This document shows, one piece after another, positions 1 through 5,996 of a stretch of DNA of 5,996 nt. Below the pieces are notes generated by a model. That model had not been told where the DNA came from. It searched no databases and saw nothing but the letters and a program-made list of their open reading frames with translations. The position numbers and the translations under genes are program-made. Each line of letters starts with the position of its first letter. Positions within the stretch are counted from its first letter, which is position 1. This DNA comes from a virus (taxonomy: Duplodnaviria; Heunggongvirae; Uroviricota; Caudoviricetes): the IMG/VR virus record IMGVR_UViG_2690316066_000017, positions 1 to 5,996 of that record; one strand, given 5' to 3'.

Positions 1-2
1 AG

Positions 3-548
3 TCCTGCATATCCCTGGAAGAAGCACCACCGGCAAAACAGCAGATTGTCTGTAGTCGCAGTTTTGGTGAACGAATCACAGACAAAGATGCCATGCACCA
101 GGCTGTTGTTCAGTATGCTGAGCGGGCCGCAGAGAAACTACGTGGGGAGCGTCAGTATTGCCGGCAGGTGACGACATTTGTACGGACATCCCCCTTTGCA
201 GTAAAAGAACCCTGTTACAGCAATGCCGCTGTGGAAAAGCTTTCATTGCCCACACAGGACAGCCGGGACATTATTGCCGCCGCATGCAGAGCCTTAAACC
301 ATGTCTGGCGTGAAGGGTACCGCTATATGAAGGCAGGAGTCATGCTGGCTGATTTCACACCATCGGGTATAGCGCAGCCGGGATTATTTGATGAAATCCA
401 GCCCCGTAAAAACAGTGAAAAGTTAATGAAAACACTCGATGAACTGAACCAGTCGGGAAAAGGGAAAGTGTGGTTTGCGGGGCGAGGAACCGCCCCTGAA
501 TGGCAAATGAAACAGGAAATGCTATCGCCTTCGTATACAACACAATAG
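3..548 (+). CDS. umuC: Y-family translesion DNA polymerase, UmuC/MucB/ImpB/SamB family, C-terminal part (5' end lies outside the window)
   Basis: The reading frame is open from position 3 with no stop before TAG at 546-548; the ORF-track start at 93 is only the first internal Met. The translation (...WFAGRGTAPEWQMKQEMLSPSYTTQ) matches the conserved C-terminal region of UmuC-type proteins as I recall them. No umuD-like gene is visible because the upstream region is outside the window. Confidence 0.85.
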   Translation, partial: SCISLEEAPPAKQQIVCSRSFGERITDKDAMHQAVVQYAERAAEKLRGERQYCRQVTTFVRTSPFAVKEPCYSNAAVEKLSLPTQDSRDIIAAACRALNHVWREGYRYMKAGVMLADFTPSGIAQPGLFDEIQPRKNSEKLMKTLDELNQSGKGKVWFAGRGTAPEWQMKQEMLSPSYTTQ

Positions 549-568
549 ACTGAGATCCCCATTGCTTC

Positions 569-586
569 ATTCTGATATATCAGAAT
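569..586. terminator. 18-bp perfect palindrome (attctgatatatcagaat) followed by a T6 run (589-594) between convergent umuC and stbB; possible weak intrinsic terminator for the + strand transcript
   Basis: Perfect dyad seen directly in the sequence: 7-bp AT-rich stem, 4-nt loop, then aaTTTTTT on the + strand. It overlaps the last codons and stop of stbB (580-582). Confidence 0.3.
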
Positions 587-972
587 AATTTTTTCATTTT
601 AAGACGCACATCATTCATTGCCTCCTGCACCGAATCAGTAGCAGAAGGAGGCATTTTTTCAGCAAATTGCGAAGCACCGAGTTCAGTCAACACAGCTCTG
701 ATATCGGCCTGAGAAGGCTTCCATCCAGTCGTCTGACTGAGTAAGGTTACAACCTGATCTGCTGAAAACTCCTCGCTCAAAATGGCAGTCAGCAATACAG
801 GCAGGCGAGGATCAAGTTGGTGTAACGCCATTCCAGAAATAAATGCATTCCGGAACAGCTCACCACGCTCAGAACGCGGAACGGACTCTATCGCTTCCAA
901 AGTTTGAAAGTCTGCAGCTTTTTCCGGATGCAGATAAAGTGTGTATTTTTTCCTTTTCCGTTCATCGTCCAC
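580..972 (-). CDS. stbB: StbB/ParR-like partition adaptor protein (DNA-binding partner of StbA)
   Basis: Sits immediately downstream of the ParM-like gene in the same orientation, the classic parM-parR order. It is a small protein with a basic N-terminus. The ORF track begins at a TTG at 1008, overlapping stbA by 32 nt; I prefer GTG at 972-970, which lies 4 nt after the stbA stop and is preceded by a strong SD (AAGAGGAG, 7-nt spacer). Stop is TGA at 580-582. Confidence 0.6.
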   Translation of the reverse strand: MDDERKRKKYTLYLHPEKAADFQTLEAIESVPRSERGELFRNAFISGMALHQLDPRLPVLLTAILSEEFSADQVVTLLSQTTGWKPSQADIRAVLTELGASQFAEKMPPSATDSVQEAMNDVRLKMKKLF

Positions 973-976
973 AATA

Positions 977-1948
977 TTACTCCTCTTTGAAAGCCGCGAT
1001 AGCTTCAACCAGTGCTGTCTGTGGCGACTCCATCATCACTACTTTTTGCCCAAGATGGTGCCATGCCGTTTTTATCGAATCATAGATCAACGGGGCCCCA
1101 CCACCGACAACATAAACACGATTCACATGATGGAAATCACCGAGCTCATTGACTACTTGCTCCCCCAAACTGGCAATAGCCCCCTCAATGGTATTAAGGA
1201 CCAGATCAGTTTTTGTTTCGTCATTTATAACCTGCCGAACAAAGTCCGGGTCATTACGACGTTTAATCAATTCATCTGCAACGAGGAAACTGGTATCACT
1301 GGATGCCATGCGCAATGCACTCATTGCAGCTTTCGTAACTGAAGATACACCAATGCCAGAATTACCATGAATGGCACTTACAGAGTCAAATTGACCAACG
1401 ATAACACCAACATCAAGCGTAGTGCCGCCAATATCAACTACCAGCGATTTTTCGAACTGACCAACTTTATCCACGACCAGACGAGAAAACACAGCTGGCA
1501 ATGATTCAGGCATCACATCAACGTGTTCAATGGTGAAAACATCGCCTTTATTAAGACGAATCGGCCCCATTAAATTCTCAATTTTACGCTGAATGTTGAG
1601 TTCATTTTTTTGACACTCTTTCGTATAGAACTCACTGATAGGCAAAGTCACAGTCAATGATACAGGCTGAGGCGCTAATCCACTATTCAGTAAAGCGTGA
1701 TGCACAGCTAACAGGTTAACATCCGTATATTGATACTCAATATGAGTCGTAAGAATAGATTGGTTGCTAACTTCATCATACGTGTATTTTTTACCATCCA
1801 GTTCATAGTTAAATGTCTGGCGAATTCCTAACCCGTCAACCTTCCATCCATGACGAAATGAGTTTTGCGACAACGACTTACAGATTTCCCCATTATCATT
1901 CCATGCCAACTTGATTGTTGTTGAACCATCATCGCAGTATACGTTCAT
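977..1948 (-). CDS. stbA: StbA/ParM-family actin-like segregation ATPase (type II plasmid partition)
   Basis: 323 aa. The N-terminus MNVYCDDGSTTIKLAW resembles the ParM phosphate-1 motif (DDGSTxxK), and downstream DIGGTTLD and VVGGGA motifs are typical of the actin/ParM fold. ATG at 1948-1946 is preceded by AAGGGG SD; stop is TAA at 979-977. Confidence 0.85.
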   Translation of the reverse strand: MNVYCDDGSTTIKLAWNDNGEICKSLSQNSFRHGWKVDGLGIRQTFNYELDGKKYTYDEVSNQSILTTHIEYQYTDVNLLAVHHALLNSGLAPQPVSLTVTLPISEFYTKECQKNELNIQRKIENLMGPIRLNKGDVFTIEHVDVMPESLPAVFSRLVVDKVGQFEKSLVVDIGGTTLDVGVIVGQFDSVSAIHGNSGIGVSSVTKAAMSALRMASSDTSFLVADELIKRRNDPDFVRQVINDETKTDLVLNTIEGAIASLGEQVVNELGDFHHVNRVYVVGGGAPLIYDSIKTAWHHLGQKVVMMESPQTALVEAIAAFKEE

Positions 1949-1961
1949 CTATAGCCCCTTA

Positions 1962-2019
1962 AATACTCAATCTGAGTAAATCATTGTTTCTGGTTGCAAT
2001 GTAATACTCAATTTGAGCA
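1962..2019. repeat. Two copies of a 15-bp palindromic element (AATACTCAATcTGAG at 1962-1976 and AATACTCAATtTGAG at 2003-2017), 41 bp apart, in the stbA leader
   Basis: Direct repeat with one mismatch, seen in the sequence. Each copy contains an inverted repeat (tactca-N3-tgagta; the second arm of copy 2 is tgagca). Operator- or centromere-like geometry upstream of stbA. Confidence 0.6.
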
Positions 2020-2076
2020 CTATCATAGTTATGAAATCACAAAACACAAGTATTATTTATTACATCACATGACACA

Positions 2077-2097
2077 CTTCATATTTCATACTTCATA
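2077..2097. repeat. Three tandem heptamers (CTTCATA TTTCATA CTTCATA); a related 9-mer CATACTTCA recurs at 2087-2095 and 2145-2153
   Basis: Counted directly in the sequence. The repeats flank the 2112-2136 dyad. Iteron-like, possible ParR/StbB binding (parC-like) or repressor sites. Confidence 0.5.
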
Positions 2098-2111
2098 AAT
2101 ATGAACACATA

Positions 2112-2140
2112 TTGACACCTCAGGTTACCGTGTCAAAATA
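2112..2140. promoter_or_regulatory. Inverted repeat TTGACAC-N11-GTGTCAA giving consensus -35 hexamers (TTGACA) on both strands; candidate promoter/operator for the parA-like gene (+) and/or stbAB (-)
   Basis: TTGACA at 2112-2117 (+) and its mirror at 2136-2131 (-). A weak -10-like caaaat at 2134-2139, with TG at 2131-2132, lies 16 bp downstream on the + strand. SD GAGG at 2168-2171 precedes the ATG at 2177. Confidence 0.35.
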
Positions 2141-2176
2141 TCATCATACTTCACACATCATATTTATGAGGTTGCA

Positions 2177-2416
2177 ATGATTACTGTAGTTGGTGGGAAC
2201 AAAGGTGGTTCAGGGAAAACTACCATTGCATCAAACCTGGCTATTGCTCTAGCAAATAAAGGAAGGGAAGTCTGCCTGTTAAACGGAGATCTACAACGAA
2301 CAGCCGCAAAACATCATGCGGAACGAGAAGCTGCAGGACTGTTACCAGCAATAACCCTTGTTGAGAAATTTGATATGCTGATATCAAAGCTGCTGTCATT
2401 GTTGATGTCTGCATAA
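2177..2416 (+). pseudogene. N-terminal fragment of a ParA/MinD-superfamily Walker-type ATPase (type I partition-like), truncated at the junction with P2-like DNA
   Basis: Begins MITVVGGNKGGSGKTT, a deviant Walker A motif (KGGxGKT) at the extreme N-terminus as in small ParA proteins. The ORF is only 79 aa, whereas ParA proteins are roughly 200 aa or more. Its 3' end overlaps the oppositely oriented R fragment, and composition shifts to GC-rich near 2405-2415. Confidence 0.55.
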
Positions 2417-2691
2417 AACGTGAAGCCCTTTTTCTGGCCTTCGTCGGTGGTCATGATGTCGGGCTGATTTTCCCGCAGCCACGCCAGCACCGGCACGATG
2501 AGCAGGTCAAAATCACCGGTAAAGTCGGTCACAATGACATTGAGCGTGTAACGCTTTTCAAATGACAGCGACGCCGCCAGTGTGGAGGCAATACTCCCGT
2601 TATCCACGAATATCCGCAGCATCTCGGGACTGGTTTTCAGCACCGTGACGGCATCAGTCAGCGCCCTGCGCAGGCTGTCGGGTTTGAGCAT
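2314..2691 (-). pseudogene. R: P2 gpR-like tail completion protein, N-terminal fragment; the ORF tail downstream of about 2405 is read-through into unrelated AT-rich DNA
   Basis: Occupies the position after lysC in the P2 late-gene order (K-lysA-lysB-lysC-R-S). Starts at ATG 2691-2689 with an AGGA SD. At 125 aa the ORF is shorter than the roughly 155 aa I recall for gpR, and its C-terminal codons overlap the parA-like fragment on the other strand. Confidence 0.5.
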
Positions 2692-2944
2692 CGTTTTCGT
2701 CCTGACAGTGTTTAATCATTTTTACCTGGCTGGCACAGCGCGCCAGCGCGTTCTCAAGCTGCCGGATATCGGCACTTAAATCGCCGTTCGTCTCCGGGGC
2801 GCTGCCCGGCATCGGGCAAAGACTCACTTTCGGGCAGGCGTTGGGGACAATCACTGGCGTCGGTGCAGGCGGGGCGCTGGTGCAACCGGCGCACAGCATC
2901 AGGCAGGTCAGCGCCGTACCAGCGGCGAAAATCTTCGTTTTCAT
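2654..2944 (-). CDS. lysC: Outer-membrane lipoprotein spanin (Rz1/LysC-like o-spanin)
   Basis: 96 aa. Signal peptide with lipobox (…LMLCAG|C) followed by a Pro-rich segment (TSAPPAPTPVIVP), typical of Rz1. Starts in the +1 frame inside lysB and runs past the lysB stop (overlapped spanin architecture). ATG at 2944-2942 has a GAGG SD. Confidence 0.7.
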   Translation of the reverse strand: MKTKIFAAGTALTCLMLCAGCTSAPPAPTPVIVPNACPKVSLCPMPGSAPETNGDLSADIRQLENALARCASQVKMIKHCQDENDAQTRQPAQGAD

Positions 2945-3224
2945 TCAGTAACCTCGTGATGGTTTTCTCGCGCTGTGCTTCACGCTTCGCCGCGTTCTCC
3001 AGTTCCTGACGCAGTGCCACCTGCGCCAGCTCGTTTTTGTCTGCTCTGGTGAGGGCAACATGAAGCTGATTTTTCAGCATGGTGATGGTCGTCTGCTGCC
3101 CGCTGGCGACGTTGTTCGCCCTGTCCAGCGAGGTGCGCAGGCTGGCGTTTTCATGCTTCGCCAGAAACAGACCGGCCACCGCCAGCGATAACAACACGAC
3201 CAGCACAATCATCAGCTTTGACAT
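2754..3224 (-). CDS. lysB: Inner-membrane spanin (Rz/LysB-like i-spanin)
   Basis: N-terminal transmembrane helix (MIVLVVLLSLAVAGLFLA), then a charged, coiled-coil-like periplasmic domain. Lies directly after lysA with an overlapping start. ATG at 3224 has a GAGGGG SD; an alternative ATG at 3212 overlaps the lysA stop as TGATG. Confidence 0.7.
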   Translation of the reverse strand: MSKLMIVLVVLLSLAVAGLFLAKHENASLRTSLDRANNVASGQQTTITMLKNQLHVALTRADKNELAQVALRQELENAAKREAQREKTITRLLNENEDFRRWYGADLPDAVRRLHQRPACTDASDCPQRLPESESLPDAGQRPGDERRFKCRYPAA

Positions 3225-3637
3225 GGTTCCCGCCCCTCAAAACGCTGACGACAGGCCGTACGTATCAGCCGGAAGAACACCGACGCCACGAGGTAAATCA
3301 GCGCAGTAAAAATCCACCCGGCAGCGACCAGCGAGATAAACGTCGCCACCATCACCACCAGAGCCGCCGCCCGTCTGCGCCACGGCACCGGCTGCAAAAA
3401 CAGCGACGTGACAATCTTCACGGCCAGCGATTCCGGCGGCAGCTCCCGCCCGTAGCGTTCAAGTACATACTCGGTGGCATACACGCCGACACCACCGGCA
3501 ACCACACAGATAACCGTCGCCAGAATCGCCCAGGCGGCGACAAAACTGACGGCCACGCTCTGCGGGTAAATCAGGGACAGTGCCAGCATCATCACCAGCG
3601 ACACGTTCAGCATCAGTGAAAGGGATAATTTCTTCAT
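3212..3637 (-). CDS. lysA: LysA-like polytopic membrane protein (lysis-timing accessory, P2 lysA position)
   Basis: 141 aa with about four hydrophobic transmembrane segments, located between the endolysin and the spanins exactly as P2 lysA. GGAG SD lies 8 nt upstream of ATG 3637. Confidence 0.7.
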   Translation of the reverse strand: MKKLSLSLMLNVSLVMMLALSLIYPQSVAVSFVAAWAILATVICVVAGGVGVYATEYVLERYGRELPPESLAVKIVTSLFLQPVPWRRRAAALVVMVATFISLVAAGWIFTALIYLVASVFFRLIRTACRQRFEGREPCQS

Positions 3638-3651
3638 GGTGTTTACTCCGT

Positions 3652-4149
3652 TTAAGCCGGTACGCCGCCAGCGGTACGCCAGACGGTGACCAGTTTTTCC
3701 AGTGAATGCTCACGCTGACCGTAACCGGCACCCGGCAGGGACGCCCAGATATTGCGACAGCGTGAAATGGCGCGCTCAATGCGTCCCGCCCGGATGTCAT
3801 CCAGTGCACCGCGTTCGCGGATCAACTGAATGGCGAGTCTGTCCTGTGACAACGGACTGAAATCCGGCAGGGCAAGCTGTTTGCGGTAGTGCGGCCAGAA
3901 CAGGTAAAGCTGCTGATAGCGACCGGAGGCCGTGGACTTTTCACCGCGACGGTTAAACACCTTCGCCGGTCGGCCATGCGCGAACGGGTGGTCACTGTAG
4001 TCGGTGAAAATTTCCGGCTTCCCGTCCAGTCCGGTGACTATCACGTCATAGCCCCGGTTTTTCGTCAGCGGATGATTTGCCGTCCCTTCGGACACCGCCA
4101 GCATGTCGAGAAAGGCGGCGATATTCTGATGCGTGTTAATTACCGGCAT
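3652..4149 (-). CDS. K: Endolysin, lambda R-type lytic transglycosylase family (P2 gpK-like)
   Basis: 165 aa. N-terminal FLDMLAVSEGT contains the conserved catalytic Glu of lambda-R-type transglycosylases, and C-terminal NIWASLPGAGYGQ is a conserved family block. The start ATG overlaps the holin stop (TAATG). Confidence 0.9.
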   Translation of the reverse strand: MPVINTHQNIAAFLDMLAVSEGTANHPLTKNRGYDVIVTGLDGKPEIFTDYSDHPFAHGRPAKVFNRRGEKSTASGRYQQLYLFWPHYRKQLALPDFSPLSQDRLAIQLIRERGALDDIRAGRIERAISRCRNIWASLPGAGYGQREHSLEKLVTVWRTAGGVPA

Positions 4150-4430
4150 TACGGTTTCCCCCTGCCCTTAAAGCGGCGCTGAATGGCAATCTCAATCACC
4201 TGATAACCGGCGATACCCAGCATGGAGCCGATGCCGCACACCGCAGGCAGTGACAGGTCAGGAAACTGCACCAGAACAACACCGGCAACCATCGAGACAA
4301 AACCACCGAGCAACATGCGCCCGATAAACAGACGCGGGGTGATGGGTTCACCACCGGCAAGCACCTTGCCGACAACAATCAGCACCCCAATCATAAAAAG
4401 CGACAGGACGCTTTTTTCTTCTGCTGTCAT
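4149..4430 (-). CDS. Y: Holin (class I, three transmembrane segments; P2 gpY-like)
   Basis: 93 aa with three hydrophobic segments and a basic C-terminal tail (QRRFKGRGKP). Immediately upstream of the endolysin and translationally coupled to it. GGGAG SD upstream of ATG 4430. Confidence 0.8.
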   Translation of the reverse strand: MTAEEKSVLSLFMIGVLIVVGKVLAGGEPITPRLFIGRMLLGGFVSMVAGVVLVQFPDLSLPAVCGIGSMLGIAGYQVIEIAIQRRFKGRGKP

Positions 4431-4433
4431 GCG

Positions 4434-4637
4434 TTACTCCCACAGATTGACAGTTTCAGCCACGGGCGCGGTCTGAACGTCGGGCAGTTCGACGGCGGTG
4501 CCGTGCGGCAGCACTGCACCCAGTTCAGCCAGTCCCGGATTTGCGGCGAGCACGGCTTCGACCACGCCCTCAGTGCGCCCGTAATACCGGACACAAATGG
4601 CGTCGAGCGTGTCGCCCTGTAGCGCAAAGGTCTTCAT
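4434..4637 (-). CDS. X: P2 gpX-like small tail protein (LysM-like)
   Basis: 67 aa from the internal ATG at 4637-4635 (MKTFALQGDTLDAICVRYYG...), which overlaps the L stop as TGATG. The 90-aa extension in the ORF track would overlap L by 69 nt and is not preferred. Confidence 0.75.
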   Translation of the reverse strand: MKTFALQGDTLDAICVRYYGRTEGVVEAVLAANPGLAELGAVLPHGTAVELPDVQTAPVAETVNLWE

Positions 4638-5146
4638 CAGATTTGACTCACGATGCAGCGCGGTTTGTCCTGGATACGCGCCACCGCCCAGCGCATATCC
4701 CGCCACAGCTCATCAATGGTGCTGTCAATGCTGTCAGCCTTCTTGTCACCTTTCGCACTGGCATCCACGCCGCGATAACGCTCATAAAGCGACGCGGTCG
4801 CCATCGCACACACGGCGCGCTCGTAGTAAAAAACTTTGATGCTTTCACCGTCGATATCGTCCGCCGGGACGTCCGCCAGACACGTAAAACCGGCGGCAAT
4901 TTTCTGTTCGCGGTACTCGTACAGCTCCGCATTTGTCTCCGCCATGCCTGACTTGATGGCCTCACGCAGACGGGCGGGGGCGACGGTCTGCTCAAGGCGC
5001 ATACGTTCCCGGACGCGCTTCGGGTCGATATCGGGAAAAAAGAACGTGTTTTTAATCACCGGCTCGTCGCCTGCCGGTTGCGGGATGACCACCGTACCCT
5101 CACCGGACACGGGAGCCTCCTTTCGCGGAATAATCAGCGTCATCAT
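4637..5146 (-). CDS. L: P2 gpL-like head completion protein
   Basis: 169 aa from the ATG at 5146-5144 (MMTLIIPRKEAP...), preceded by a GAGG SD. The ORF-track start at 5206 adds 20 residues with no SD. Position and size fit P2 gpL. Confidence 0.75.
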   Translation of the reverse strand: MMTLIIPRKEAPVSGEGTVVIPQPAGDEPVIKNTFFFPDIDPKRVRERMRLEQTVAPARLREAIKSGMAETNAELYEYREQKIAAGFTCLADVPADDIDGESIKVFYYERAVCAMATASLYERYRGVDASAKGDKKADSIDSTIDELWRDMRWAVARIQDKPRCIVSQI

Positions 5147-5245
5147 GACTACCTCAGAAAAGTCGGGCGGTGGACGCCGGTGCAGTGTCAGGTGATTCAC
5201 CCTCACTGACCGGCGTGCCGCCCTGGCGCGGGGCGCATTCGGTTG

Positions 5246-5428
5246 TTAACTGGCTTTCTTTTTCGGGCGTCCACGTTTTGCCGGTGTCACGCTCCGGGTC
5301 TTACGCGGGGCGCGGGTGGCCGCTTTGGGCTGCGGCTCCGGCTTCGGTTTCAGCTCCCGCTCCAGTCGTTCAATCTCTTTTTTGACGCCTGCCTGACAGT
5401 CGAGCTGTGTCGCACGTTGCAGGTGAGC
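5246..5428 (-). pseudogene. M: C-terminal fragment of a P2 gpM-like terminase small (endonuclease) subunit, truncated at its 5' side by the junction/ambiguous bases
   Basis: Only about 60 codons remain before the stop at 5246-5248, and the frame enters the N stretch at 5429-5438. Its position upstream of L matches P2 order (O-N-M-L). The C-terminus is very basic with an AT-hook-like KRGRPKKK. Identity as M is inferred from position and memory, not verified. Confidence 0.45.
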
Positions 5429-5438
5429 NNNCNNANNN
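5429..5438. other. Stretch of ambiguous bases (nnncnnannn) exactly at the boundary between P2-like DNA and the fimbrial usher fragment
   Basis: Seen directly in the sequence. GC-rich phage-type sequence lies to the left and AT-rich usher sequence to the right. Confidence 0.95.
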
Positions 5439-5439
5439 G

Positions 5440-5996
5440 CCACGGCCCAATGTTAATTCCCGGTTCCAAACTGGCCCAGAAATTATCTGACGTTGTTTTC
5501 TCATAATGTTGAAATTCTGAATGTCCTGCCTCTACCTGCCAATTTAGCAAAAAAGTTGATATTCCGTCTTCCCATATCAGGTCGGAAGCAACTCCTCTCA
5601 ATGGTGAACGAATTGCTACTTGAGGGATACTAAGCACTAATTTCTGCGCTTCAAACAGAAACTCTTCGGTTGCTTGAGGAATTACAGATAAATCTGCACA
5701 TTGTCTTTCATCTTTTTTTCCATAATGCGAGAGGAAAAGTTTAGGGTATTTCTCTGTCTTCACCCCATAACGCATTAACAACTCCTCACTTAAACAAGCC
5801 TTTAAATAAGGTTTTCCATTACTATGTTCGGCATGGAAAAATATATCCTCTGAACCCACAATAGTTCCATTTAGAAAAATATCGACTGGATAAATGCCGG
5901 GAAGTTGCCCTCCATTTTCAAAAAGAGTTAGGTCTACTCCCTCCCCTCTTCTCTTTAGCAAAGATGCATCGAATGAATATGTCTTTCCATCTGAAT
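5440..5996 (-). pseudogene. Fimbrial usher (PapC/FimD-family outer-membrane usher), N-terminal region; the 5' end lies beyond the window and the 3' end is truncated at about 5440
   Basis: The translation contains the usher N-terminal hallmarks (DLTLFENGGQLPGIYPVDIFLNGT ... LNWQVEAG ... GINIGPW). The reading frame stays open upstream of the ORF-track TTG at 5961 through to the window edge (...SDGKTYSFDAS-LKRRGEG...). Homology stops at the N stretch, after only about 220 codons of a protein that is normally about 800 aa. Confidence 0.75.

What the first reader, a model, noticed from the sequence alone, without database searches (positions are those of the whole stretch)
2400..5440. Orphan 3-kb block of P2-type late genes (M'-L-X-Y-K-lysA-lysB-lysC-R') embedded in a plasmid-type maintenance/fimbrial context
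The block holds an apparently intact, tightly overlapped lysis cassette (holin, endolysin, LysA, i-/o-spanins) plus head completion L and tail X, but its flanking genes M and R are cut. No capsid, terminase large subunit, tail sheath/tube, integrase or repressor is in the window, so this cannot be a functional prophage on its own. By eye the block is clearly GC-richer than the plasmid-like DNA on its left and the usher fragment on its right. Either it is a degraded phage remnant whose lysis genes are still intact, or the contig is chimeric.
Basis: partly seen in the sequence, partly recalled or inferred. Interest (0 to 1): 0.7.

Follow-up and report, generated by a model that had tools for sequence, protein, structure and literature searches.

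The report
Chimeric contig, not a phage remnant
The 3-kb block of P2-type phage genes is real sequence, but it sits between plasmid genes almost certainly because unrelated pieces of one E. coli strain's chromosome and plasmid were wrongly joined in a draft assembly, so there is no orphan lysis cassette to explain.

Summary
Window 2376-5428 is a collinear P2-type late segment, M'-L-X-Y-K-lysA-lysB-lysC-R', at 58.7% GC. It lies between pAA-plasmid DNA (umuC'-stbB-parM-parA', 43.9% GC) and an agg3C usher fragment (39.8% GC).

The arrangement is an artefact.
- The window is an entire 5,996-bp draft contig, CDRY01000017.1.
- All three pieces match the closed genome of E. coli O111:H21 strain 15A at 100%, or with one mismatch. 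There the phage piece lies inside a complete P2-like prophage in the chromosome, and the two plasmid pieces lie on pDEC15A-1 in the opposite order, 4.3 kb apart.
- The left junction is a blunt 1-bp join inside two genes.
- The right junction is a 10-base patch, nnncnnannn. Its Ns fall exactly where the phage and plasmid continuations differ, and its two called bases fall where they agree.
- A sibling contig, CCBW01000004.1, shares the left junction. It then jumps from phage gene L into recF, and later from mnmE into yfiR.
- Neither junction occurs in 5,426 complete E. coli genomes, 72,556 plasmids, 50,697 phages, or the metagenome and species-representative genome collections.
- Four other independent assemblies carry the identical block inside a full prophage.

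Verdict: not a real feature, low interest.

The parts
1..548 (+). Segment A (1-2375, pAA-type plasmid): 3' end of umuC, C-terminal 181 aa. The contig starts in mid-gene.
   Evidence: Matches pDEC15A-1 79047 onward. Pfam IMS_C and DUF4113.
580..972 (-). Segment A: plasmid partition/stability gene (StbB-like, Plasmid_stab_B).
   Evidence: Annotation of pDEC15A-1. PF10784.
977..1948 (-). Segment A: parM, the actin-like plasmid segregation ATPase. Intact.
   Evidence: PF06406 and PF21523.
1949..2176 (.). Segment A: AT-rich divergent intergenic region between parM and the ParA-like gene. It holds short direct and inverted repeats and is presumably a promoter and centromere-like site (inferred).
   Evidence: GC 0.34-0.35. 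Repeats.
2177..2375 (+). Segment A: first 66 codons of a ParA-like AAA ATPase gene, which is 214 aa in the closed plasmid. It is cut at the junction. The called 79-aa ORF 2177-2416 is a fusion that reads on into antisense phage DNA.
2375..2376 (.). Left junction: a blunt join of plasmid to phage. Only one base (A2375) is shared. It lies inside two genes, with no IS end, no target-site duplication and no repeat.
   Evidence: Base-level alignment. Repeat scans.
2376..2691 (-). Segment B (P2-type): R' tail completion gene, N-terminal 105 of 155 aa.
2654..2944 (-). Segment B: lysC (Rz1-like o-spanin).
   Evidence: NF038368..
2754..3224 (-). Segment B: lysB (Rz-like i-spanin), a 156-aa variant with a 15-aa C-terminal extension.
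   Evidence: TIGR03495. Comparison with the 141-aa form.
3212..3637 (-). Segment B: lysA.
   Evidence: NF038378. PF28015.
3652..4149 (-). Segment B: endolysin K.
   Evidence: Annotated as glycoside hydrolase family 104 in identical sequence and as endolysin in phage vB_YpM_46. No Pfam or NCBIfam hit here.
4149..4430 (-). Segment B: holin Y.
   Evidence: PF04550, full length.
4434..4637 (-). Segment B: tail protein X.
   Evidence: PF05489.
4637..5146 (-). Segment B: head completion protein L.
   Evidence: PF05926..
5246..5428 (-). Segment B: M' terminase small (endonuclease) subunit, C-terminal 60 of 247 aa.
   Evidence: Coordinates from the identical 15A prophage.
5429..5438 (.). Right junction: the patch nnncnnannn. 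The 8 Ns are the positions where the phage continuation CAGCGCACCG and the plasmid continuation TTTCTGATAC differ. The called c and a are the 2 positions where they agree. This is the pattern expected from an overlay consensus of two unrelated sequences.
5439..5996 (-). Segment C (pAA-type plasmid): internal fragment of the AAF usher gene agg3C (PapC_N region). It is cut at both ends, by the junction and by the contig end.
   Evidence: 100% identical to pDEC15A-1 74210-74767. PF13954.

Best explanation
The window is a chimeric contig. Three pieces of DNA that are not neighbours in the cell were joined end to end. They are two pieces of a pAA-type aggregative-adherence plasmid and a 3,054-bp piece from the middle of the late operon of an ordinary, complete P2-like chromosomal prophage. 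The join arose either from a chimeric molecule in the sequencing library (blunt ligation of fragments) or from the assembly, scaffolding or polishing software.

The intact lysis cassette is simply a stretch of a normal prophage. M and R are cut because the fragment ends there, not because of decay. Nothing works as a unit here. In the real genome these genes do the ordinary P2 jobs: Y, K, LysA, LysB and LysC lyse the cell, L completes the head, and X, R and M act in tail assembly and packaging, all under late (Ogr-dependent) control within the full prophage.

Shown: the three-piece structure, the native contexts, the junction anatomy, and the mosaic sibling contig. Inferred: which step (library or software) made the joins.
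For: 1. The window equals the whole contig CDRY01000017.1 of GCA_001373235.1.
2. Segment B is 100.0% identical over 3,054 bp to E. coli O111:H21 15A chromosome 2923960-2927013. That stretch lies inside a complete P2-like prophage, ogr to int, between fieF and cpxP.
3. Segments A and C match that strain's plasmid pDEC15A-1: one true mismatch in 2,375 bp for A and 100% over 558 bp for C. On the plasmid, C (74210-74767) lies 4.3 kb upstream of A (79047-81421) in the same orientation, so the window's order A...C is permuted. The ParA-like gene and agg3C are intact there. Another pAA plasmid, NZ_CP023552.1, shows the same relative order, C upstream of A.
4. The left junction shares only 1 bp and lies inside two genes. 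The block has no flanking target-site duplication, inverted repeat or IS.
5. At the right junction, all 8 Ns fall at positions where the two native continuations differ, and both called bases fall where they agree. Only 0.7% of plasmid 10-mers would reproduce this pattern.
6. Contig CCBW01000004.1 of GCA_000939035.1 is identical to window 1-4938, including the same terminal base and the same left junction. It then jumps with a 2-bp overlap into the middle of recF. After 7,138 bp (recF'-dnaN-dnaA-rpmH-rnpA-yidC-mnmE') it jumps with a 1-bp overlap into yfiR-dgcN. None of 5,426 complete genomes has these loci contiguous.
7. No record spans either window junction among 5,426 complete E. coli genomes, 72,556 plasmids or 50,697 phages. 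No exact junction match was found in metagenome contigs or GTDB species-representative genomes. The only viral-collection hit, L012, is a sub-stretch of the CCBW contig.
8. The junction-spanning fusion ORFs occur on only these two contigs among about 15 billion proteins, and on none from Logan re-assemblies of raw runs.
9. Three other assemblies and one metagenome scaffold carry the block at 99.97-100% identity inside a full late operon that continues through both breakpoints.
10. Where P2-type blocks do occur on records filed as plasmids, the one examined (H16) holds an essentially whole prophage.
Against: - The left junction appears in two deposited assemblies and carries no ambiguous bases, which could be read as replication. 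I could not establish whether the two assemblies are independent. Their shared contig end and 100% identity over 4,938 bases suggest shared data or a shared pipeline.
- No reads could be inspected, so the artefact is inferred from comparative evidence.
- The one true mismatch to pDEC15A-1 (position 2000) means the source may be a close relative of strain 15A rather than 15A itself. The closed genome is therefore a proxy for the true structure.
Confidence: 0.93

Rival explanations
1. A real phage remnant on a plasmid. In this lineage, a 3-kb piece of the resident P2-like prophage was captured between a rearranged parA-like gene and agg3C on a pAA-derived plasmid by two illegitimate, homology-free recombination events. 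This left an expressible lysis cassette on the virulence plasmid.
For: - The left junction is clean and present in two database assemblies.
- All lysis ORFs are open.
- Both flanks come from the same plasmid type.
Against: - The block has 0 differences from the chromosomal prophage over 3,054 bp, so it shows no decay.
- The flank order is permuted relative to the closed plasmid of the near-identical strain, so extra rearrangements would be needed.
- The right junction carries the overlay-consensus N pattern.
- The only other contig with the left junction goes on to two further impossible-looking joins, L|recF and mnmE|yfiR.
- The arrangement is absent from every closed genome, plasmid, phage, metagenome and Logan resource searched.
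Confidence: 0.04
2. A real but transient recombinant molecule present in a subpopulation of the sequenced culture. For example, prophage DNA fragments could have joined to plasmid fragments after induction or DNA damage and then been captured by sequencing. This would be physically real DNA but not a heritable replicon.
For: - The blunt, homology-free joins of fragments of about 0.6 to 7 kb would also fit end-joining of broken DNA.
- The segments come from the chromosome and the plasmid of one strain.
Against: - E. coli lacks an efficient end-joining pathway (established knowledge).
- In-vitro ligation during library preparation gives the same product far more readily.
- The N overlay indicates that reads from both native contexts were piled onto the junction.
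- This reading cannot be told apart from a library chimera with the data available.
Confidence: 0.03

Closest known systems
Complete P2-like (Peduovirus-type) prophage of E. coli O111:H21 strain 15A, NZ_CP077477.1 about 2909949-2941987, between fieF and cpxP
   Same: Window 2375-5428 is 100.0% identical to 2923960-2927013 of this prophage, with the same gene order M-L-X-Y-K-lysA-lysB-lysC-R. The same sequence lies in full-prophage context in three other assemblies and one metagenome scaffold.
   Different: In the prophage the block continues on both sides, into S, V, W, J and so on, and into N, O, P, Q. In the window it stops abruptly inside R and M and abuts plasmid DNA.
Isolated P2-like phages (Peduovirus P2, P22H1 and P22H4, Yersinia phages vB_YpM_46 and HQ103, Salmonella phage STYP1)
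   Same: 97.7-98.1% nucleotide identity over the whole block in one aligned piece of equal length in query and record, with the same genes.
   Different: Those are complete 29-34 kb genomes. The window holds 3 kb. LysB here is the 156-aa variant.
pAA-type aggregative-adherence plasmids (pDEC15A-1 NZ_CP077478.1, 55989p NC_011752.1 and relatives)
   Same: Segments A (umuC-stbB-parM-parA-like) and C (agg3C) are 99.5-100% identical to these plasmids.
   Different: In pDEC15A-1 and in NZ_CP023552.1, C lies several kb upstream of A. No P2 DNA lies between the two segments in pDEC15A-1, where both cut genes are intact. The listed pAA plasmids match only the flanks.
Chimeric or misjoined contigs in draft genome assemblies (a known class of artefact; my own knowledge)
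   Same: - Each segment has an uninterrupted native context elsewhere.
- The junctions are blunt, lie inside genes and are unique to the deposited assembly or assemblies.
- There is an ambiguous consensus at one junction.
- A sibling contig is a mosaic of at least four loci.
   Different: The step that produced the joins (ligation chimera, scaffolder or polisher) could not be identified without reads or assembly metadata.
Genuine cryptic prophage remnants in E. coli (my own knowledge)
   Same: A remnant would also show a partial set of phage genes with truncated end genes.
   Different: As I understand them, genuine remnants recur at the same junctions in related closed genomes and have usually diverged or decayed. 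This block is identical to a resident intact prophage, and its junctions recur nowhere independent.

Membership tests
P2-type (Peduovirus) late-operon segment | High nucleotide identity and collinearity with P2-like phage genomes across M-L-X-Y-K-lysA-lysB-lysC-R. | tested here: met
   97.7-98.1% identity over 3,029 bases in one aligned piece to many P2-like phages. Annotation of the matching region.
P2-type (Peduovirus) late-operon segment | Family-specific protein signatures: GpR, LysC, LysB, LysA, holin family 2, tail X, GpL. | tested here: met
   PF06891, NF038368, TIGR03495, NF038378, PF04550, PF05489 and PF05926, all above their curated cut-offs. Endolysin K and the M' fragment had no HMM hit and rest on the annotation of identical sequence.
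Genuine prophage remnant or plasmid-borne phage fragment | Junctions with the host replicon are reproducible in independent assemblies or closed genomes. | tested here: not met
   0 of 5,426 complete E. coli genomes, 72,556 plasmids and 50,697 phages span either junction. No match in metagenome or GTDB contigs. The fusion ORFs occur only on two sibling contigs. The IMG/VR hit is the same contig.
Genuine prophage remnant or plasmid-borne phage fragment | The flanking host DNA is collinear with the uninterrupted replicon, apart from the insertion. | tested here: not met
   In pDEC15A-1 the right flank lies 4.3 kb upstream of the left flank, so the order is permuted. Both interrupted genes are intact there.
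Transposon- or IS-mediated, or site-specific, insertion | Target-site duplication, terminal inverted repeats, an att-like core, or an adjacent transposase or integrase. | tested here: not met
   No direct or inverted repeats at 2375 or 5428. 1-bp overlap at the left junction. No transposase or integrase ORF in the window.
Phage-plasmid (a single replicon that is both phage and plasmid) | A complete virion gene set plus plasmid replication and partition functions on one replicon. | tested here: not met
   Only 7 complete and 2 truncated late genes are present. There is no capsid, portal, large terminase, sheath or tube gene in the contig.
Chimeric (misjoined) contig | Each segment has an uninterrupted native context in the same or a near-identical genome. 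| tested here: met
   Strain 15A chromosome and pDEC15A-1. Four further assemblies for the phage block.
Chimeric (misjoined) contig | The junction shows signs of conflicting sequence data. | tested here: met
   At 5429-5438 the Ns fall exactly at the positions where the two native continuations differ. The chance rate is 0.7%. This applies to the right junction only; the left junction has no ambiguous bases.
Chimeric (misjoined) contig | Other contigs from the same source show unrelated loci joined. | tested here: met
   CCBW01000004.1 has the order yfiR|mnmE...recF|L...R|parA-like, with three non-native junctions in 12.7 kb.
Chimeric (misjoined) contig | No reads, or only clipped reads, span the junctions, or read depth is discontinuous across them. 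| not testable with these tools

The most novel reading that the evidence does not exclude
The left junction, and perhaps both junctions, are real. An O111:H21 enteroaggregative lineage would then carry a pAA-derived plasmid that captured a 3-kb, fully open P2 lysis cassette (holin, endolysin, LysA, spanins) by homology-free recombination. That would put a phage lysis module on a virulence plasmid, outside prophage control.
Probability: 0.03. Interest if true: 0.4.

Novelty: not a real feature. Interest (0 to 1): 0.05.

Why it matters
As biology it does not matter: the genes are an ordinary stretch of an ordinary P2-like prophage.

As data hygiene it has some value. The chimeric contig has spread into derived resources.
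- A fusion of ParA with antisense R carries a RefSeq protein accession, WP_283236559.1.
- A 6.5-kb piece of the sibling chimera is listed as a viral genome in IMG/VR.

Scans for phage remnants, phage-plasmid hybrids or plasmid-borne lysis genes will pick up such contigs as false positives. Two quick checks recognise them:
- Ask whether each segment has an uninterrupted native context in a closed genome of the strain.
- Ask whether the Ns at a junction coincide with the differences between the two native continuations.

Tried and rejected
1. Real insertion by a mobile element. I looked for target-site duplications, terminal inverted repeats and shared repeats at 2375 and 5428 and found none.
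2. Simple insertion of phage DNA into the plasmid. Rejected because the flanks are permuted, not adjacent, in pDEC15A-1.
3. Independent replication of the junction. The viral-contig hit L012 looked at first like a third instance. It proved to be 100% a sub-stretch of CCBW01000004.1.
4. Restriction-site or proximity-ligation (3C-type) origin. By eye, the junction sequences regenerate no restriction site, and the overlaps are only 1-2 bp, so sticky-end ligation is unlikely. This rests on inspection, not a formal test.
5. Mate-pair circularisation. The A-end to C-start topology fits a circle junction of a 7.2-kb plasmid fragment. The sibling contig's joins link loci on different replicons or far apart on the chromosome, so this is not a general explanation.
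6. Literature on the accessions and the strain. Searches for CDRY and CCBW accessions, DEC15A, O111 H21 and the IMG id returned nothing relevant. One search failed on a syntax error.
7. Whether the CDRY or CCBW assemblies also hold the block in its native prophage context. I tried through the 156-aa LysB. The variant is too common (214 index blocks) and the places returned came from other assemblies. They still showed the native context.
8. Whether lysB is a pseudogene, as RefSeq marks it in strain 15A. The HMM match is full length and the variant is widespread in complete prophages, so it is more likely a normal variant.

Full report
**1. What is in the window**

The ORF list, composition profile and direct reading show three compositional zones and a patch of ambiguous bases, nnncnnannn, at 5429-5438. 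BLAST against annotated collections splits the window into three independently matching pieces.
- Segment A, 1-2375, is pAA-type plasmid DNA: the umuC 3' end, a Plasmid_stab_B gene, parM, an AT-rich intergenic region, and the first 66 codons of a ParA-like ATPase gene.
- Segment B, 2375/2376-5428, is a P2-type late-operon piece.
- Segment C, 5439-5996, is an internal piece of the aggregative-adherence fimbrial usher gene agg3C.

GC is 0.439, 0.587 and 0.398 respectively. No record in any collection covers 80% or more of the window.

**2.

All genes of segment B are on the minus strand:
- R', N-terminal 105 of 155 aa
- lysC, lysB and lysA
- endolysin K, holin Y, tail protein X and head completion protein L
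- M', C-terminal 60 of 247 aa

This rests on the annotation of identical sequence in strain 15A, the annotation of a viable phage, and NCBIfam and Pfam hits above the curated cut-offs. The block is 97.7-98.1% identical, in one aligned piece of equal length in query and record, to isolated P2-like phages. The true end points are 2375/2376 and 5428, not 2400 and 5440.

**3. Where the pieces come from**

All three pieces find their best match in one closed genome, E. coli O111:H21 strain 15A.
- Segment B is 100.0% identical over 3,054 bp to chromosome positions 2923960-2927013. The next best genome is at 98.8%. That stretch lies in the middle of a complete P2-like prophage, from ogr to int, with capsid, terminase, portal, sheath, tube, baseplate, fibres, replication gene and repressor region, integrated between fieF and cpxP.
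- Segment C is 100% identical to plasmid pDEC15A-1 at 74210-74767. Other pAA plasmids are at 99.6%.
- Segment A matches pDEC15A-1 at 79047-81421 with a single true mismatch, at window position 2000.

On that plasmid, C lies 4.3 kb upstream of A in the same orientation. The ParA-like gene and agg3C are both intact, and no phage DNA lies between them. Another pAA plasmid, NZ_CP023552.1, shows the same relative order. The window is therefore not plasmid plus insertion. Its flanks are permuted.

**4. The junctions**

Left junction: plasmid identity ends and phage identity begins at the same base, A2375. It is a blunt join with 1 bp in common, inside the ParA-like gene and inside R. No direct or inverted repeats flank the block, and the window holds no transposase or integrase.

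Right junction: the ten positions 5429-5438 read NNNCNNANNN. The phage would continue CAGCGCACCG and the plasmid, read into the junction, is TTTCTGATAC. The two strings agree only at positions 4 and 7, exactly the two bases that are called, and they differ at all eight N positions. Only 0.7% of the 10-mers in the plasmid locus would reproduce this pattern against the phage continuation. This is what a consensus caller gives when sequence from two different native contexts is overlaid on one short stretch. A real junction read by spanning reads would not look like this.

**5. The window is a whole contig and has a mosaic sibling**

Looking up the two junction-spanning ORFs by exact sequence returned just two contigs.
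- CDRY01000017.1 of GCA_001373235.1 is 5,996 bp and identical to the window.
- CCBW01000004.1 of GCA_000939035.1 is 27,240 bp.

The second contig is 100% identical to window 1-4938, ends on the same terminal base and has the same left junction. At 4938, inside gene L, it switches with a 2-bp overlap into the middle of recF. After 7,138 bp of the chromosomal origin region (recF'-dnaN-dnaA-rpmH-rnpA-yidC-mnmE') it switches again, with a 1-bp overlap inside mnmE, into yfiR-dgcN. That locus is far away on the chromosome, and no complete genome has the two contiguous.

So the only other sequence that carries the window's left junction is a chain of at least four unrelated segments joined inside genes. 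That is not credible as biology. It shows that whatever produced these two assemblies makes such joins. The shared contig end and shared junction suggest common data or a common pipeline, so the two are not independent replicates.

**6. Absence elsewhere, and the native context elsewhere**
- The fusion proteins occur on only those two contigs among about 15 billion proteins, and not in Logan re-assemblies of raw runs.
- Exact junction patterns, with wildcards at the N positions for the right junction, gave no hit in metagenome contigs. The left junction gave none in GTDB species-representative genomes. The one viral-collection hit, L012, is a 6,535-bp sub-stretch of the CCBW contig.
- Three other assemblies carry the block at 100% identity: two drafts with AIHP and AIHQ accessions, which I believe belong to the DEC collection, and GCA_034663195.1. 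One metagenome scaffold carries it at 99.97%. In all four it lies inside a full late operon that runs straight through both of the window's breakpoints.
- Where P2-type DNA does occur on records filed as plasmids, the one I examined holds an essentially complete prophage, not a fragment.

**7. Interpretation**

Best explanation, about 0.93: a chimeric contig. The lysis cassette looks intact because it is a verbatim stretch of a normal prophage. M and R look cut because the fragment ends there.

I cannot tell from sequence alone which step made the joins. Two routes are possible:
- physical ligation chimeras in the library, which would fit the blunt, homology-free junctions and the fragment sizes of about 0.6 to 7 kb;
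- an assembly, scaffolding or polishing step, which would fit the overlay-consensus Ns.

Rivals:
- A real plasmid-borne remnant, about 0.04. It needs several homology-free rearrangements, zero divergence from the chromosomal copy, and a coincidental N pattern. It also has to disown its only replicate.
- A real but transient recombinant molecule in the culture, about 0.03. It cannot be distinguished from a library chimera here.

**8. Comparison with what is known, and verdict**

The block is a member of the P2-type late operon by identity, synteny and protein signatures. It fails the tests for a genuine remnant (reproducible junctions, collinear flanks), for a transposon-type insertion, and for a phage-plasmid. 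It meets three of the four tests for a chimeric contig. The fourth, read-level evidence, cannot be run here.

Novelty: not a real feature. Interest: low, 0.05. The practical value is as a warning, because products of this chimera already sit in RefSeq proteins and IMG/VR.

Noticed in passing
L003 1-12691 (CCBW01000004.1 14550-27240); junctions at L003 618, 7754-7755 and 10317: The sibling contig from assembly GCA_000939035.1 is a mosaic: dgcN-yfiR' | 'mnmE-yidC-rnpA-rpmH-dnaA-dnaN-recF' | phage L'-R' | plasmid parA'-parM-stbB-umuC'. Every junction lies inside a gene with a 1-2 bp overlap. That assembly probably holds more chimeric contigs.
   Followed up: yes
L012 (IMGVR_UViG_2657245634_000021, 6,535 bp): IMG/VR lists as a viral contig a stretch that is plasmid (umuC'-parM-parA'), 2.6 kb of P2 late genes, and chromosomal recF'-dnaN. 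It is a piece of the CCBW chimera, so the artefact has entered a viral reference collection.
   Followed up: yes
window 2177-2416 (+): The 79-aa ORF made of 66 codons of the ParA-like ATPase plus 13 codons of antisense phage R carries a RefSeq and UniRef identity, WP_283236559.1 'ParA family protein'. A chimeric fusion has been accessioned as a protein.
   Followed up: partly
window 2754-3224 (-): LysB is 156 aa. The usual stop after ...PDAGQ is missing, and 15 extra residues follow compared with the 141-aa form. RefSeq marks lysB as an incomplete pseudogene in strain 15A. The TIGR03495 match is full length, and this exact variant occurs in 214 index blocks, always within complete prophages in those read. 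It is probably a functional variant.
   Followed up: partly
window 1949-2176: The AT-rich (about 34-35% GC) divergent region between parM and the ParA-like gene holds about four copies of a 24-nt CATCAyA...TTCATAttT-like direct repeat and several inverted repeats (for example 2090-2104 with 2158-2172). It is presumably the partition site and promoter region. This was not analysed further.
   Followed up: partly
window 2000: This is the only true difference from pDEC15A-1 in segment A (T here, G in the closed plasmid). It falls in one copy of a 10-nt direct repeat, GGTTGCAATG (1992-2001 and 2170-2179). It could be a strain SNP or a consensus error. It means the source may be a close relative of strain 15A rather than 15A itself.
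   Followed up: no
L001 29000-32052 and 18548-19333 (strain 15A prophage, outside the window): The intact source prophage carries cargo genes between the portal and replication genes. One is a ParB_N-domain protein that matches the PADLOC PD-Lambda-5_A models (best E = 6e-29). It is followed by a 329-aa partner with no hit, then a Dcm-type cytosine methyltransferase. A 261-aa hypothetical protein with no hit lies between S and V. This looks like a likely anti-phage defence cargo locus.
   Followed up: partly
L002 8937-13437 (pDEC15A-1, outside the window): The source plasmid's fimbrial operon is agg3D-agg3C-agg3B with an agg5A major subunit (AAF/V type). It is flanked by IS3 fragments and a group II intron (ltrA). 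The strain is therefore an enteroaggregative E. coli with AAF/V.
   Followed up: no
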